Shown: positions 48,831 to 54,310 of the stretch, piece by piece
How positions within the stretch are numbered: position 1 is the stretch's first letter
How the letters are laid out: each line of letters opens with the position of its first letter
Sequence record: NC_028894.1
Length of the DNA stretch: 64,000 nt
Direction: 5' to 3' (one strand)
Source of the DNA: Escherichia phage vB_EcoM_VR20
Position numbers and translations under genes: made by a program
Notes under the pieces: model-generated
Seen by the model: only the letters and a program-made list of their open reading frames with translations
Database searches by the model: none
Told to the model about the DNA's origin: nothing

Positions 48831-51800
48831 ATGGCTACTTTAAAATCAATACAATTTAAAAGAAGTAAAATAGCAGGAGCCAAGCCTACTGCAGCTCAGT
48901 TAGATGAAGGTGAACTGGCTATTAACTTACGCGACCGCACGATTTATACCAAAACCGACCAGAACCAGATTATTGACCTGGGTTTTGCTAAAGGTGGACA
49001 GGTTGATGGTGATATTCTCCAGAACGGCACATTTAACCTCAATGGTAATATGTTCGTTTACGCTGGTAAGTATATTGAATTTTTACCTAAAACTGCCGGT
49101 AATGGTGCCTGGGCTAACCAGCACTTGAATAAAGCTCCTATCTTTGCAGATTTAAGTTCAACTACCTCAGTATCAGAATATCATCCTCTGATTAAGCAAC
49201 GTTATAAAGACGGTACTTTTTCTGCTGGTACATTAGTAAACGAAGGTAGTTTTAAATTCCATTATATTGATGAAACCGGTGATTCGAAATATTGGACTTT
49301 TAATCGAAATGGTAATTTCATCGTAGATTCCGGTAGTATTGAAGTTCGTACCGGTAATATTTCTGCTTCAGGCAATATAAACTCTGCTAATGGTATTATC
49401 ACCGGTCCTGAAATTGTTACTAAAAATATTAATTTTAGTACAAAAACATTTGTAGCTAATGCTAACATTGGATATGATTGGGTTTCTTTACCTACTTGGG
49501 TTTATAACCCACCGGCTGATGGTTCTGATAATACTACTAACGGTTTAAACTATTTGCGTAAATTACGTGCATCAAGTGCATCAAGTATTTTCCATGAAAT
49601 TGCCGATTGCCGAAAAGGCAAGCCACAAGAAATTTCTTGGTGGACCGGTGTAGGTCCGGCATCTTTCCAATGGGCGTTTGATACTAGTGGGCGTATTACT
49701 GCAGGTAAATCTATTTCTGTTGGTCTTCCTGATAGTGGTACAAACGGCCGTTATCCTTTAGATTCTGCGATTTCTATAGGTATTGCCATCGGTGATAACG
49801 ATACAGGTATTAAATGGGTCCGTGACGGCGTTATCGATTTAATGGCCAATGGTATTTCATCTGCAACTATTCTTAATAACGGTATTAATAGTACTAAAAA
49901 ATTGATGGTTGGATATAGTCGAGATTCTGGTTCTACTTGGGATTTCCCAAATAACAACCAAGCAATGTTTACTGCTCGTACTGATATTGATGGCAATAAT
50001 AACGGTGATGGTCAGACTCATATCGGTTATAACAGCAATTCTAAAATGTATCACTATTTCCGTGGCACGGGTCGTATGGCTGTTGGTATGGCCGAAGGGC
50101 TTATTGTTGAACCAGGAATTTTAGATATTAAAACCGGTTCTAATAGCGTTGCTATTAGAGCGGACGGAACAATTAACTCCACCCAGCGTATTTCTATGCG
50201 TACGGGCTTGTTTTTAAATGGTGATGATAATACTAATGCTTTATCGTTTAAAGCGCCTTCTGGTGTTGATGGTACTAAAACTATCAATTGGGACGCAGGT
50301 ATTCGTAACGGTCAAAACAAAAACACTGTAACACTTAAAGCTTGGGGTAACTCCTTTAACGCAGGCGGCGGTAACAGAGAAACTGTATTTGAAGTATCAG
50401 ATTCACAAGGTTATTATTTTTATGCCCAGCGTACAAATCCGGCCGTTGCCGGAGGTATAGGACCTGTCAACTTTAAGTTTAACGGAACTGTTGAAACAGG
50501 CCATATCATAGGCCTTGGTGATATTACTGCTTCCGGTACAGGTTCTTTTGGTGGCAATGTTACCATGACTAATGGCCTGTTTGTCCAAGGTGGTTCTTCT
50601 ATTACTGGCCAAGTTAAAATTGGTGGAACGGCAGATGCATTAAGAATTTGGAATGCTGAATACGGTGCTATTTTCCGTCGTTCAGAAACAGCATTACATA
50701 TTATCCCGACTAATAAAGATGCCGGTGAAAGCGGTGGAATAAGTAATCTTCGCCCATTAAGTATTGGTCTTGATAATGGTATGGTACAAATGCGCCATTC
50801 TGTCACGATAGGCGATAATGGTACTGGCGGTAATATGATTACTGTGGACAACGATAGCAAACTTGTTGTTGTTACTAGTAATAGTCGCATTTCTCCTAAT
50901 TTCCGTATGCAGATAGGACAAGCATCGTATATTGATGCTGAATGTACTGACACAGTTCGCCCTGCGGGAGCTGGTTCTTTTGCTTCACAGAATAATGAAA
51001 ACGTCCGTGCTCCGTTCTATATGAATATTGATAGAGCTGATACTGGTACATATGTTCCGATTTTGAAACAACGTTATGTTCAAGGCAACGGCTGCTATTC
51101 ATTAGGGACTTTAATTAATAATGGTAACTTTAGAGTTCATTATCATGAAGGCGGAGATAACGGTTCTTCAGGTCCACAGACTGCTGATTTTGGATGGGAA
51201 TTTATTAAAAACGGTGATTTTATTTCACCTCGCGATTTAATAGCAGGCAAAGTCAGATTTGATAGAAATGGTAACATCACGGGTGGTTCTGGTAATTTTG
51301 CTAACTTGAACACAACTTTAGACCGCAAAGTTACCACGGGCTGGATTAATTATGTTGATAGTGGTTGGTATAAATTAGCAACAGTAACTATGCCTCAGGG
51401 TGTGGCTACGGCCCAATTTAAAATTACCGGTGGTTCTGGATTTAACGTTGGTATTTTCAGACAAGCAACAATTAATGAAATTGTATTACGCTCGGGTAAT
51501 AATACACCTAAAGGAATTAATGGCGTTTTATGGCAGCGTGAAACGGATGCTATTAAAGACATAGCATATATTAATATCTCTGGCGATGAATATGATGTTT
51601 ATATTAATTGTGGCACCTATTTAAATAGACTTACAATCGAATATAGCACGTCAGAAAATGCTTCAGTAGTAGTTCATGGATTATACGGGCCTACCCAATC
51701 ACCAATAGCAGAACTTCCTGTAGACAGTGTTAAAGGACGCGTTTTTAAACTTCTTAACAATAGCTCAGGTGTTTTTGATGCAGGTAGTTCTAATATTTCT

Positions 51801-52799
51801 ACAAACGCTACATTTGTTGCTAATACAACCATTGGATTCCGTCACAAATCTAATGGTGACGAAAGCGGTTCCGCTGCTACTTTGTTTTATAATGATGGTA
51901 CTACGTTCCACATATTATTAACAGATAAAAATACCGATGCTGATAAAACTAAAGCCTCAGGTTCTTATAATAGCTTGAGACCTTTTTCTATTAATATTGC
52001 TTCCGGTAAAGTAACTATTTCAAACTCTATGAGCGTTTCTGGGTTATCAGAGTTTTATAATGGCCTTAACATCAAAAATAATGGAAGCATTAACTTTGAT
52101 AAATCAGGTACTAACCCGAGAAACATGCGTATATTCCATGCTGGCGATGCTTCTCGTGGAAACCGTATTGAAATAGCTGATGACAGTAGTTACTTGGTTT
52201 ATTTTCAACGTTATGCAGCCGGCGGCATTGTTTGTTCATTTAACAACTCTGATATGACCGGGGTGCAAACTCTTAACGTCGAGACCAAAATTAATACCCC
52301 ACAAATTGGCTCATTTGGCGTTAATACGACCAACGCACTTGGTGGTAACTCGATTGCAATCGGTGATACTGACACTGGTATTAAACAGAGTGGTGATGGT
52401 ATTTTTGATATTATTACTAATGCCGCCCGCCGCATGAGATTCCAGTCAGGTGATACTTATTCGGATATGAATATTAACGCCCCGAACGTTTATATTCGTT
52501 CTGATATTCGTTTGAAATCTAACTTCAAACCTATTGAAAATGCTCTTGACAAGGTTGAACAACTAGACGGTTTAATCTACGATAAAGCAGACTACATTGG
52601 CGGTGAAGTTGTTCATACCGAAGCAGGTGTTATTGCACAGAGTTTAGAAAAAGTATTACCTGAAGCTATTCGTGAAGTTGACGACATTAAAGGTAACAAA
52701 GTTCTTACCGTTTCAACCCAGGCACAAGTTGCTCTGTTAATTGAAGCAGTTAAAACTCTGTCGGCTAAAGTTAAAGAACTTGAAGCAAAACTTAATTAA
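48831..52799 (+). CDS. 37: Long tail fibre distal subunit gp37, T2-type with C-terminal chaperone-like domain
   Basis: 1322 aa; N-terminal half matches recalled T4 gp37; last ~110 aa resemble an intramolecular chaperone domain with coiled-coil end. Confidence 0.85.
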   Translation: MATLKSIQFKRSKIAGAKPTAAQLDEGELAINLRDRTIYTKTDQNQIIDLGFAKGGQVDGDILQNGTFNLNGNMFVYAGKYIEFLPKTAGNGAWANQHLNKAPIFADLSSTTSVSEYHPLIKQRYKDGTFSAGTLVNEGSFKFHYIDETGDSKYWTFNRNGNFIVDSGSIEVRTGNISASGNINSANGIITGPEIVTKNINFSTKTFVANANIGYDWVSLPTWVYNPPADGSDNTTNGLNYLRKLRASSASSIFHEIADCRKGKPQEISWWTGVGPASFQWAFDTSGRITAGKSISVGLPDSGTNGRYPLDSAISIGIAIGDNDTGIKWVRDGVIDLMANGISSATILNNGINSTKKLMVGYSRDSGSTWDFPNNNQAMFTARTDIDGNNNGDGQTHIGYNSNSKMYHYFRGTGRMAVGMAEGLIVEPGILDIKTGSNSVAIRADGTINSTQRISMRTGLFLNGDDNTNALSFKAPSGVDGTKTINWDAGIRNGQNKNTVTLKAWGNSFNAGGGNRETVFEVSDSQGYYFYAQRTNPAVAGGIGPVNFKFNGTVETGHIIGLGDITASGTGSFGGNVTMTNGLFVQGGSSITGQVKIGGTADALRIWNAEYGAIFRRSETALHIIPTNKDAGESGGISNLRPLSIGLDNGMVQMRHSVTIGDNGTGGNMITVDNDSKLVVVTSNSRISPNFRMQIGQASYIDAECTDTVRPAGAGSFASQNNENVRAPFYMNIDRADTGTYVPILKQRYVQGNGCYSLGTLINNGNFRVHYHEGGDNGSSGPQTADFGWEFIKNGDFISPRDLIAGKVRFDRNGNITGGSGNFANLNTTLDRKVTTGWINYVDSGWYKLATVTMPQGVATAQFKITGGSGFNVGIFRQATINEIVLRSGNNTPKGINGVLWQRETDAIKDIAYINISGDEYDVYINCGTYLNRLTIEYSTSENASVVVHGLYGPTQSPIAELPVDSVKGRVFKLLNNSSGVFDAGSSNISTNATFVANTTIGFRHKSNGDESGSAATLFYNDGTTFHILLTDKNTDADKTKASGSYNSLRPFSINIASGKVTISNSMSVSGLSEFYNGLNIKNNGSINFDKSGTNPRNMRIFHAGDASRGNRIEIADDSSYLVYFQRYAAGGIVCSFNNSDMTGVQTLNVETKINTPQIGSFGVNTTNALGGNSIAIGDTDTGIKQSGDGIFDIITNAARRMRFQSGDTYSDMNINAPNVYIRSDIRLKSNFKPIENALDKVEQLDGLIYDKADYIGGEVVHTEAGVIAQSLEKVLPEAIREVDDIKGNKVLTVSTQAQVALLIEAVKTLSAKVKELEAKLN

Positions 52800-52830: not shown

Positions 52831-53619
52831 ATGGCAATTGTAGGTGTTCCTGGTTGGATTGGACAATCTGCCGTAGATGAAACGGGACAACGTTGGATGG
52901 ATGCCGCTATGCGCGATGTGCGAGTTGCAGTACCCGGTTGGATGGGGTCGATGGCAGGACAATCAAAAGAAATTTATCTATCTATAGGGGCTAATAACTC
53001 TTATGATAGAAACTCCCTTATTAACTGGATGAGGGCTCAAGGTGGTGCGCCTGTAGTTATTACAATCACCGGTAACTTAGTATCCAATAGCACCGGTAAC
53101 GCTTGTTTGGAATTTCCTAGCAATCTTCCTAACGCGTATATTCAACTTATCATTAATAGCGGTGTGACTGTTTATGGCCGAGGAGGTAATGGTTCTACTA
53201 ATGGTTCGGCAGGTGGAAACGGTGGTACAGCTATCCATAACGCAGCCGGAACTAAACTCCGTATTCGTAATAACGGCGCTATTGCCGGTGGTGGCGGTGG
53301 CGGTGGCGCAGTATCATTGCAAAATAGCTACCCGACTAATGGTACATGCGGTGGTGGTGGTGGTAGACCATTTGGCGTAGGTGGCAAAATAGGCTCTGAC
53401 GCTATATTGTCCGGTTCGAATGCGTCTTTAACAGCTGCCGGTACAGGTGGTGCTACAGTCCAATATGGTGGAGGTAATGGCGGTAACGTTGGAGCTGGCG
53501 GTGGACGAGGATGGGGCAAAAATGTTTATACCTCTGCAGGTGGCTCAGCTGGTGCTGCTGTCACTGGCAATGCTCCTAACTGGCAAAACGTAGGAACTAT
53601 TTACGGCTCAAGAGTCTAG
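52831..53619 (+). CDS. 38: gp38 receptor-recognising adhesin, T2/T6 type
   Basis: 262 aa; conserved N-terminus MAIVGVPGWIGQSAV.ETGQRWM, poly-glycine blocks, C-terminal GTIYGSRV. Confidence 0.75.
   Translation: MAIVGVPGWIGQSAVDETGQRWMDAAMRDVRVAVPGWMGSMAGQSKEIYLSIGANNSYDRNSLINWMRAQGGAPVVITITGNLVSNSTGNACLEFPSNLPNAYIQLIINSGVTVYGRGGNGSTNGSAGGNGGTAIHNAAGTKLRIRNNGAIAGGGGGGGAVSLQNSYPTNGTCGGGGGRPFGVGGKIGSDAILSGSNASLTAAGTGGATVQYGGGNGGNVGAGGGRGWGKNVYTSAGGSAGAAVTGNAPNWQNVGTIYGSRV
53287..53307 (+). repeat. GGY codon microsatellite encoding poly-Gly inside gene 38
   Basis: ggtggtggcggtggcggtggc seen directly. Confidence 0.6.
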
Positions 53620-53656: not shown

Positions 53657-54310
53657 ATGGAACCAAAAGTAGGAATCTCAATACCCGACCTACTTTTTGG
53701 ACTTCTTGATAGAATTTTTAAAGATAATGCAACCGGGAAAGTTGTCTTTTCCCGGGTACTAGTTATTGTTCTATTATTTTTAATGGCGGTAATCTGGTAT
53801 AAAGGTGATGCAATTTTAGATGCGTATAGGGATGCTTCATATGCCTCGTACACAGAAATGATAAGGCAAGACCAGGATAACAGATTTAAAATTGCAGCTA
53901 TCGAGCAAATCCAGATAGTTCACTCATCAAGCGGAGCAGACTTTACAGCGATATATTCCTTTAGACCAACTAACCTTAACTACTTCGTGGATATGGTGGG
54001 GTACGAGGGGATATTACCTGAATCAGTTGACGAAAAAAATTTGGGTGGGTTTCCAATAGATAAGACTTCAGCGGAATATTTGGCGGGGGTTAATGGTAAT
54101 TATTTTGAATCCGGCACGGAATCTGTATTCTTACCAACAAAGAAAAAAAGCAGCTTCGAATATATGTTCAGCTGCCCATTCTTTAATTTGGAAAACGTTT
54201 ACGCAGGCACAGTCTCGTTGTACTGGTATAAGCAAAAACCCGACCTTAGTTTTGATAGGCTTTCTGCTATGTGTGGGCAAGCAGGTCGTACGCTCGGGCG
54301 TACACGTTAG
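53657..54310 (+). CDS. t: Holin T
   Basis: 217 aa (T4 218); single N-terminal transmembrane helix; LFG.LDR.FKDNATGKV matches recalled T4 T. Confidence 0.88.
   Translation: MEPKVGISIPDLLFGLLDRIFKDNATGKVVFSRVLVIVLLFLMAVIWYKGDAILDAYRDASYASYTEMIRQDQDNRFKIAAIEQIQIVHSSSGADFTAIYSFRPTNLNYFVDMVGYEGILPESVDEKNLGGFPIDKTSAEYLAGVNGNYFESGTESVFLPTKKKSSFEYMFSCPFFNLENVYAGTVSLYWYKQKPDLSFDRLSAMCGQAGRTLGRTR

What the first reader, a model, noticed from the sequence alone, without database searches (positions are those of the whole stretch)
53283..53340. GGY codon microsatellite inside the adhesin gene
The run ggtggtggcggtggcggtggc and further GGN repeats are prone to slipped-strand mispairing. Expansion or contraction would change the length of the poly-Gly scaffold that displays the variable loops, giving a route to host-range variation.
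Basis: inference. Interest (0 to 1): 0.35.

Follow-up and report, generated by a model that had tools for sequence, protein, structure and literature searches.

The report
Glycine codon runs in gp38 adhesin
The GGT/GGC run is the coding sequence for a well-known polyglycine structural core of a T2-type phage tail-fibre adhesin; its length never varies in this phage's lineage, though related phages occasionally show slippage-type changes there.

Summary
(GGY)7 lies at 53287-53307 and (GGT)5 at 53350-53364, inside a 262-aa T2-type gp38 long-tail-fibre adhesin (52831-53619). The gene sits between gp37 and holin t.

The two runs encode conserved polyglycine type-II helices. Between them lies receptor loop B (HVS2, 53308-53349). 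This architecture has been described since 1987-2018.

In this allele's own lineage the Gly count is fixed at 7+5. That holds in 23 proteins, 7 genomes and 3 further public read sets, even though the GGT/GGC spelling differs between genomes. It therefore does not behave as a hypermutable contingency repeat.

The slippage idea is not baseless. In the sister RB5-type lineage, viable cultured isolates carry 9->12 Gly (one extra GGCGGCGGT unit), 5->4 Gly, and two independent 51/54-bp duplications of the whole loop. Those duplications join the two Gly tracts through a shared 14-nt match. Five of seven indel events fall in this 10% of the gene.

The window gene is also a mosaic, with one switch falling inside the G7 tract. 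This fits the published view that these motifs act as recombination sites.

No effect of Gly-run length on host range has been shown. Verdict: known feature, interpretation partly supported, low to moderate interest.

The parts
52831..53619 (+). gene 38: T2-type receptor-recognising adhesin, 262 aa
   Evidence: ORF. Pfam GP38 (aa 47-262, 1.3e-78) and Gp38_N (aa 1-42, 6.8e-16). PDB 6F45_D 1.5e-43 and 9V85 1.9e-39. AF2 model pLDDT 89.9, TM 0.80-0.91 to 6F45_D and 9V85. 92% nt identity to T2 gene 38.
53287..53307 (+). G7 tract, GGT GGT GGC GGT GGC GGT GGC (aa 153-159). It corresponds to PGII helix 3 of S16 gp38 (151-GGGGGGGG-158); in the older five-motif scheme it appears to be GRM2.
   Evidence: Aligned to the S16 G8 run. 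Columns are 91-100% Gly in 108 homologues. pLDDT is 97 for the block 151-160 with no helix or strand assignment, as expected for PGII.
53308..53349 (+). Hypervariable segment 2 / loop B (aa 160-173, AVSLQNSYPTNGTC), the receptor-contacting distal loop
   Evidence: Gaps and high variability at columns 160-173. pLDDT is 61 for the block 161-170. T2 residues 160-172 correspond to PP01 loop B (158-170), which is essential for adsorption.
53350..53376 (+). G5 tract (GGT)5 plus the invariant RPFG (aa 174-182), the next PGII helix motif
   Evidence: G175-178, P180 and G182 are 92-100% conserved, and R179 and F181 are 94-96% conserved.
53176..53226 (+). First glycine-rich motifs GRGGNG ... GGNGG (aa 116-132), PGII helices 1-2
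   Evidence: G116, R117, G118, G119, G131 and G132 are invariant in 108 homologues. Domain description.
53301..53320 (+). Mosaic patch: six consecutive informative sites match phage dhaeg rather than T2. Gene nt 457-496 (53287-53326) are identical to dhaeg, so the switch lies inside the G7 tract.
   Evidence: dhaeg has 2 mismatches in gene nt 449-509 against about 11 expected (nominal P 6e-4). T2 has 12 mismatches in nt 471-531 (nominal P 3e-3).
48831..52799 (+). gene 37, distal long-tail-fibre subunit (1322 aa) with a C-terminal Peptidase_S74 chaperone domain
53657..54310 (+). gene t, T-holin (217 aa)
   Evidence: Phage_holin_T 2.9e-66.

Best explanation
The GGY runs are the coding sequence of two conserved polyglycine type-II helices of a T2-type gp38 adhesin: a G7 tract (helix 3 in S16 numbering) and the GGGGGRPFG motif. 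[quoted passage not shown] The repeat exists because the protein needs consecutive glycines, spelled with the phage's normal GGT/GGC preference. In this lineage the number of Gly codons is held constant (7+5) by structural selection while synonymous third positions drift. At the DNA level the tracts have two secondary consequences. (i) They are short islands of similarity where recombination between co-infecting T-even phages can switch templates; the window gene is itself a mosaic with one switch inside the G7 tract. (ii) They are occasional substrates for slipped or unequal pairing. In related lineages this has produced in-frame 3-, 9- and 15-nt changes in the run and 51/54-bp duplications of the whole loop. 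The identity, the conservation, the lineage invariance and the natural indels in relatives are shown by the data. The selection argument and the slippage and recombination mechanisms are inferred.
For: Identity and fold: Pfam, PDB and structure matches, and the published S16 and PP01 structures with GRM3 as the central H-bonded PGII helix. Conservation: Gly at aa 153-159 in 91-100% and at aa 175-178 in 92-100% of 108 homologues, with indels concentrated at 162-173. Lineage invariance: 23/23 T2-type proteins have 7+5 Gly. The window, IME341, T2, AnYang, dhaeg, CJ20 and fDHCT2 all have 7 and 5 codons, with six different GGT/GGC spellings of the G7 tract. No full-length member of ten 90%-identity clusters differs in run length. 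The exact allele occurs in 3 independent read sets with identical tract DNA. Codon usage is ordinary. Mosaicism: the backbone is T2-like, the 5' end CJ20-like, and a dhaeg-like patch begins in the G7 tract. Similarity to CJ20 stays high (76-90% per 60-nt block) through gene nt 537 and falls to 53-68% from the block at nt 508-567 onward, that is, at and just beyond the G5 motif (nt 520-546); the megablast match to CJ20 ends at nt 555. Slippage in relatives: PYps14T and AV121 have (GGCGGCGGT)3 against x2 in PYps15T, PYps32T has +9 nt, D5505 has -GGT, and ZN18 and PYps47T have duplications whose junctions lie in a 14-nt match shared by the two tracts. Five of 7 indel events among 53 RB5-type phages fall in this interval (P about 1e-5 to 2e-4). 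Literature: GRMs are strictly conserved, their deletion is not recovered, and they are proposed recombination sites.
Against: The recombination evidence in the window rests on short patches with nominal, uncorrected P values. Synonymous scrambling also means real nucleotide identity within the tracts is limited between lineages. Purifying selection on run length is inferred from invariance, not measured; a low mutation rate would give the same pattern. Contraction alleles (9->4 and 7->4 Gly) occur in intact ORFs from single assemblies, so the core tolerates more change than 'fixed' suggests. No population-level data exist for this phage.
Confidence: 0.8

Rival explanations
1. One reading: the GGY run is a slippage-prone microsatellite whose expansion and contraction is a regular, selectable route to host-range variation, making it a contingency-type locus.
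For: Natural in-frame length alleles exist in homologous tracts of related, viable phages: 9->12 Gly, G10-V-G, 5->4 Gly. Contractions occur in assemblies. Indels are strongly enriched in the Gly-tract interval. The PYps phages carrying these alleles differ in host range.
Against: There is no variation in the window's own lineage or allele. The repeats reach at most 5 perfect units, or 3.2 hexamer units. The unit is in frame, so no on/off switch is possible. Experimental host-range evolution in T2 and PP01 gave loop point mutations, not Gly-run changes. GRM deletions in T6 were not recoverable. PYps15T (9 Gly), PYps14T (12 Gly) and PYps32T lyse similar numbers of strains (85, 78 and 87 of 128), which argues against a large effect, although these phages are not isogenic.
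Confidence: 0.15
2. The main DNA-level role of the conserved GGY tracts is as crossover points for homologous or homeologous recombination that swaps loop cassettes between co-infecting T-even phages (the Tetart/Krisch model). Slippage is incidental.
For: The window gene is a three-source mosaic with a switch inside the G7 tract, and similarity to CJ20 is lost at and beyond the G5 motif. Run length co-segregates with loop type across 212 sequences, as expected if tract and loop move together. The literature supports this model.
Against: The patches are short and the P values nominal. The tracts are only 15-21 nt and differ at synonymous sites between lineages, so they offer little perfect homology. 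Breakpoints cannot be placed more precisely than about 15 nt.
Confidence: 0.5
3. The run is a compositional or chance feature with no significance, or lies in a non-coding or mis-called ORF.
For: TRF scores are no higher than for other trivial arrays in the window.
Against: The (GGY)5 pattern is absent from all shuffles. The ORF has strong family, PDB and fold matches. The Gly columns are near-invariant across 108 homologues.
Confidence: 0.01

Closest known systems
Phage T2 gene 38 (receptor-recognising protein; receptors OmpF/FadL)
   Same: 92% nt and 92% aa identity over the full length. Same gene order gp37-gp38-t. Same 7+5 Gly tracts and nearly the same loop B (AASLKNSYPTNGSC vs AVSLQNSYPTNGTC). 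D190, the site of a T2 escape mutation, is conserved.
   Different: The window phage backbone is Gaprivervirus/Dhakavirus-like (CJ20 94.6%, SP18, VR7), not Tequatrovirus. The gene is a mosaic with a CJ20-like 5' end and a dhaeg-like patch in the G7 tract and loop B. Receptor use has not been tested.
Salmonella phage S16 gp38 (PDB 6F45) and PP01 gp38 (PDB 9V85): the polyglycine type-II sandwich
   Same: Sequence E-values of 1.5e-43 and 1.9e-39. The model superposes at TM 0.80-0.91. The G7 tract aligns to S16 helix 3 (151-GGGGGGGG-158).
   Different: There are 7 Gly followed by Ala instead of 8 Gly. Loop B is 5 residues longer than in S16. The loops differ, and so presumably do the receptors.
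T4 gp37 His-box duplications (Tetart et al. 1996, cited) and recombination at conserved motifs in T-even adhesins (Tetart et al. 1998)
   Same: Short conserved repeated motifs flank specificity segments and mediate duplications or exchanges. The ZN18 and PYps47T loop-B duplications through the Gly tracts are the gp38 analogue.
   Different: No such duplication is present in the window. Its two tracts share only 8 nt perfectly (GGTGGTGG), against 14 nt in ZN18 and PYps47T.
Bacterial simple-sequence contingency loci (phase-variable SSRs)
   Same: A tandem short-unit repeat inside a surface-interaction gene.
   Different: The repeat is far shorter and imperfect, its unit is in frame so there is no on/off switching, and it shows no polymorphism in this lineage. 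The comparison rests on general knowledge of such loci.

Membership tests
T2-type gp38 adhesin (Pfam PF05268 GP38 + PF21721 Gp38_N) | Profile match above the curated cut-off for both domains | tested here: met
   264.3 bits (cut-off 25) and 58.4 bits (cut-off 25).
T2-type gp38 adhesin (Pfam PF05268 GP38 + PF21721 Gp38_N) | Alternating conserved glycine-rich motifs and hypervariable segments, with a conserved C-terminal end | tested here: met
   Column conservation over 108 homologues. The Gly motifs are invariant or near-invariant, gaps and variability fall between them, and the C-terminal block (query GNAPNWQNVGTIYGSRV) is largely conserved, with G246, P249, W251, G255 and G259 at 98-99%.
T2-type gp38 adhesin (Pfam PF05268 GP38 + PF21721 Gp38_N) | Encoded directly downstream of gp37 and upstream of holin t | tested here: met
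   gp37 at 48831-52799, gp38 at 52831-53619, t at 53657-54310. T2, AnYang, dhaeg and CJ20 have the same order.
T2-type gp38 adhesin (Pfam PF05268 GP38 + PF21721 Gp38_N) | Binds an outer-membrane receptor and determines host range | not testable with these tools
   Known for T2, PP01 and S16 from the literature. Not measured for this allele.
Polyglycine type-II sandwich fold (S16 gp38, 6F45) | Three-domain fold with a PGII lattice formed by the Gly motifs, and the long Gly run as the central helix 3 | tested here: met
   AF2 model pLDDT 89.9. Foldseek gives 6F45_D E 3.4e-22 with TM 0.80/0.84, and 9V85_C with TM 0.78/0.91. Residues 151-160 have pLDDT 97 with no alpha or beta assignment. PGII geometry itself was not measured because no coordinates are returned.
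Hypermutable simple-sequence (contingency) repeat | Long perfect tandem array, typically many identical units | tested here: not met
   The best arrays are GGT x5 (15 nt) and GGTGGC x3.2 (19 nt), scoring 30 and 38.
Hypermutable simple-sequence (contingency) repeat | Repeat-number polymorphism among otherwise near-identical genomes | tested here: not met
   For this allele and lineage there were 0 variants in 23 proteins, 7 genomes and 3 read sets. The feature is met at about 10% of phages in the sister RB5-type lineage.
Hypermutable simple-sequence (contingency) repeat | Repeat-number change switches expression or reading frame | tested here: not met
   The unit is 3 or 6 nt inside an ORF, so changes stay in frame.

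The most novel reading that the evidence does not exclude
The GGY tracts flanking loop B of gp38 are a genuine family-wide hot spot for slipped or unequal pairing. They generate in-frame loop-length alleles: +/-3 Gly (a change of 3 Gly equals one PGII turn) and whole-loop duplications joined through a ~14-nt match between the two tracts. T-even phages would use such alleles to retune receptor binding. Both loop duplications found here are in phages isolated on Yersinia pseudotuberculosis. The window allele would do the same at low frequency.
Probability: 0.3. Interest if true: 0.45.

Novelty: already known. Interest (0 to 1): 0.25.

Why it matters
gp38 is the main host-range determinant of most T-even phages and a target for engineering therapeutic phages. 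Two practical points follow from knowing that the Gly tracts are a length-constrained structural core in this lineage that can still mis-pair occasionally to lengthen or duplicate the receptor loop. First, engineers should keep the Gly count when grafting loops. Second, surveys of host-range evolution should look for in-frame indels and loop duplications at these tracts, not only for point mutations. For the window itself the feature is ordinary and already explained.

Tried and rejected
1. tblastn against phages: the low-complexity filter masked the Gly-rich half, so it could not be used to compare run lengths.
2. Single-protein locus search in IMG/VR found only 2 loci. I repeated it with an alignment and obtained 62 loci.
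3. Apparent run-length outliers from a regular expression were checked one by one. P0175 is a G->A substitution, not a length change. P0117 (7->4 Gly) sits in a gp38 also broken by a 1-nt insertion, so it is not evidence for a functional variant. For P0058 (6 Gly), no other sequence with its exact loop was retrieved; its nearest relatives (YYSPMPQMKLTF loop) have 9 Gly.
4. The within-cluster protein length differences turned out to be alternative starts, N-terminal module swaps or partial sequences, not Gly-run changes.
5. The DNA of the frameshifted HP3 gp38 (P0231) could not be retrieved.
6. I tested for special codon choice that would favour or avoid repeat purity. Usage is ordinary, and (GGT)5 has P about 0.05.
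7. A full-text search for gp38 with 'slippage' returned nothing relevant.

Full report
WHAT IS THERE

The sequence ggtggtggcggtggcggtggc occupies window 53287-53307. It lies in a 262-codon ORF at 52831-53619 on the + strand, where it encodes Gly153-Gly159. A second run, (GGT)5, lies at 53350-53364 (Gly174-178), and ten shorter GGN doublets or triplets are scattered from 53041 to 53544. The stated range 53283-53340 covers the G7 tract and most of the following 14-residue variable segment. The (GGT)5 run lies just outside it.

The pattern (GGY)5 occurs four times in the 64-kb window, all here, and never in 100 dinucleotide-preserving shuffles. As tandem repeats the runs are minimal. TRF reports GGTGGC x3.2 (score 38) and GGT x5 (score 30), which is comparable to 14 other trivial arrays in the window. 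Gly codon usage in the gene is GGT 35, GGC 14, GGA 11 and GGG 2, which resembles gp37 and the other long ORFs. Five identical Gly codons in a row has a probability of about 0.05 under this usage. The repeat is therefore what consecutive glycines look like in this genome.

WHAT THE GENE IS

The ORF matches Pfam GP38 (aa 47-262, 1.3e-78) and Gp38_N (aa 1-42). The upstream 1322-aa ORF is gp37, with a C-terminal Peptidase_S74 chaperone domain. The downstream ORF is the T holin.

The protein matches two solved structures by sequence: the S16 gp37-gp38 tip (6F45_D, 1.5e-43) and the PP01 gp38 receptor-binding domain (9V85, 1.9e-39). An AlphaFold2 model built on 36 homologues has mean pLDDT 89.9. It superposes on 6F45_D (TM 0.80/0.84) and on 9V85_C (TM 0.78/0.91, rmsd 2.0).

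Residues 151-160 have pLDDT 97 and no alpha or beta assignment. Residues 161-170 drop to pLDDT 61, which fits a rigid non-canonical helix followed by a flexible loop.

The nearest DNA is T2 gene 38 at 92% identity. The surrounding genome is closest to CJ20, SP18 and VR7-type phages at about 94%.

WHAT THE GLY TRACTS DO

The authors of the S16 structure describe ten glycine-rich motifs that fold as left-handed polyglycine type-II helices into a three-layer 'sandwich'. The long run 151-GGGGGGGG-158 is helix 3, the central helix with a saturated hydrogen-bond network. The hypervariable segments form the distal receptor loops. In the alignment, G153-A160 of the window protein aligns with S16 151-158.

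In the older five-motif scheme this tract appears to be GRM2 and the GGGGGRPFG motif GRM3. I infer this because T2 D190G is placed in 'H3', and from the segment ranges given.

The segment between the two tracts (aa 160-173, nt 53308-53349) corresponds to T2 residues 160-172, which is PP01 loop B. Chimera and point-mutant experiments showed that loop to be essential for adsorption.

Trojet et al. reported strict conservation of the glycine-rich motifs. They could not recover T6 phages with any of GRM2, GRM3 or GRM4 deleted among 220 screened.

DOES THE LENGTH VARY? THIS LINEAGE

I aligned 108 full-length homologues drawn from a 5.8-billion-protein collection.
- Columns 153-159 are 91-100% Gly and columns 175-178 are 92-100% Gly.
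- Gaps concentrate at columns 162-173.
- The contiguous Gly run is 7, 8 or 9 residues long with a fixed N-terminal edge, and its length co-segregates with the type of loop that follows.

All 23 sequences with the window's loop type have 7+5 Gly. In ten 90%-identity clusters (about 130 further members), no full-length member differs in run length. All protein-length differences there are alternative starts, N-terminal module swaps or partial sequences.

At the DNA level I compared the window with IME341, T2, AnYang, dhaeg, CJ20 and fDHCT2. All have 7 and 5 Gly codons, yet the G7 tract is spelled six different ways in GGT/GGC. The count has therefore stayed constant over a period long enough to scramble the synonymous sites.

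The exact window protein is present in three independent public read sets. The gene has 0-1 mismatches there and the tract DNA is identical.

DOES THE LENGTH VARY? THE WIDER FAMILY

Here the picture differs. Among 53 named cultured phages with RB5-type gp38, 45 have a 783-nt gene and 8 do not. Reading the DNA showed the following.
- PYps14T and AV121 have (GGCGGCGGT)3 GGCGGCGGA, which is 12 Gly. PYps15T has (GGCGGCGGT)2 GGCGGCGGA, which is 9 Gly. This is a gain of one 9-nt unit.
- PYps32T has an independent 9-nt insertion, giving G10-V-G.
- D5505 has lost one GGT from the second tract (5->4 Gly).
- ZN18 carries a 51-bp tandem duplication of loop B and PYps47T a 54-bp one. Each junction joins the 5' part of the second tract to the 3' end of the first, through a 14-nt sequence that the two tracts share in those phages.
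- The two duplications differ in length and in flanking synonymous sites, so they are independent events.
- The remaining two variants lie elsewhere: a 1-codon loss in PYps15T and an 11-nt deletion in the laboratory-evolved HP3.2.

Five of seven indel events thus fall in an interval that makes up 5-10% of the gene (P about 1e-5 to 2e-4).

Single assemblies also contain intact ORFs with 9->4 Gly (a 15-nt deletion; L071) and 7->4 Gly (L072). A third contraction, in L079, lies in a gene that is also broken by a frameshift.

Slipped or unequal pairing at these tracts is therefore real in the family. Viable phages tolerate it, at least for +3 Gly and for loop duplication.

HOST RANGE

No causal link is shown. 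PYps15T (9 Gly), PYps14T (12 Gly) and PYps32T lyse 85, 78 and 87 of 128 Yersinia pseudotuberculosis strains. The loop-duplicated PYps47T lyses 52. These phages are not isogenic, and the authors only note 'insertions'.

Experimental evolution of T2 and PP01 produced point substitutions in the loops: D190G in T2, and Y159H, Q161H, N163H and T207I in PP01.

RECOMBINATION

The window gene has a T2-like backbone. Its 5' end is CJ20-like: 16 of 17 informative sites across gene nt 24-120. A dhaeg-like patch is marked by six consecutive informative sites at nt 471-490, and nt 457-496 are identical to dhaeg. The switch therefore falls inside the G7 tract (nominal P 6e-4 and 3e-3, not corrected for multiple testing).

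Similarity to CJ20 stays at 76-90% per 60-nt block through gene nt 537 and falls to 53-68% from the block at nt 508-567 onward, that is, at and just beyond the G5 motif, nt 520-546. The megablast match to CJ20 ends at nt 555.

This agrees with the published proposal that the glycine-rich motifs serve as exchange points for modular shuffling. The evidence here is suggestive only.

VERDICT

The feature is the long-known polyglycine core motif of a T2-type gp38 adhesin.

Slippage-type events occur at homologous tracts in relatives, including viable isolates. However, the window's own allele and lineage show none. The repeats are short, imperfect and in frame, and no host-range effect of Gly number has been demonstrated.

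The most likely description is a structurally constrained coding repeat that secondarily offers microhomology for recombination and for rare slippage. Novelty is low and interest is low to moderate.

Noticed in passing
L026 (Yersinia phage vB_YepM_ZN18, MN716856) 1201-2034; L077 (PYps47T, MT515755) 1101-1937: Two independent tandem duplications of gp38 loop B, of 51 bp and 54 bp. Each junction lies in a 14-nt match shared by the flanking Gly tracts. Both phages were isolated on Yersinia pseudotuberculosis. The PYps paper mentions only an 'insertion of 15 aa'.
   Followed up: yes
L081 (PYps14T), L082 (AV121), L075 (PYps32T), L083 (D5505), L074 (PYps15T): Cultured RB5-type phages show Gly-run length alleles. 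PYps14T and AV121 have 12 Gly through one extra GGCGGCGGT unit. PYps32T has G10-V-G. D5505 has 4 instead of 5 Gly in the second tract. PYps15T has lost one Asn codon in HVS3.
   Followed up: yes
L076 (PYps55T) vs L078 (PYps35T): PYps55T has a tandem GGQ|GGQ three-codon duplication in the first glycine-rich region and an extra Ser codon after the G8 run. PYps35T lacks QYGN in a later loop. This is more small in-frame indel variation next to Gly motifs.
   Followed up: partly
L084 (phage HP3.2, OP978391) vs L085 (HP3.1); protein P0231 (HP3): [quoted passage not shown] I could not tell whether these are real changes or sequencing errors.
   Followed up: partly
L071 (Logan ERR689735), L072 (ENA ERZ27280761), L079 (ENA ERZ28619516): Assemblies carry contracted Gly runs. 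9->4 and 7->4 Gly occur in intact ORFs. A further 7->4 Gly contraction occurs in a gp38 that is also split by a 1-nt insertion. All three contractions end at 4 Gly.
   Followed up: partly
window 52831-53619 vs window 30000-52800: The adhesin gene is T2-like (Tequatrovirus, 92%) while the neighbouring 23 kb is CJ20/SP18/VR7-like (about 94%). The first ~75 nt of gene 38 are identical to CJ20, which implies an intergeneric cassette exchange with a junction inside the N-terminal attachment domain.
   Followed up: partly
window 53328-53519, minus strand: This 63-aa antisense ORF is rich in Pro (PPPAPTLPPLPPP...). It is simply the complement of the Gly codons (GGN/NCC) and not a gene.
   Followed up: no
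protein P0119 (phage M1 gp38): Loop B reads YWNASITRYRYRYVV, with three RY repeats, where related sequences have ...TRYVV. This looks like a small tandem expansion inside the loop itself.
   Followed up: no
window 53396-53398 (aa D190): The residue equivalent to T2 gp38 D190 is conserved here. In T2, the D190G change lets the phage escape the PinQ/StfE2 adsorption block.
   Followed up: no
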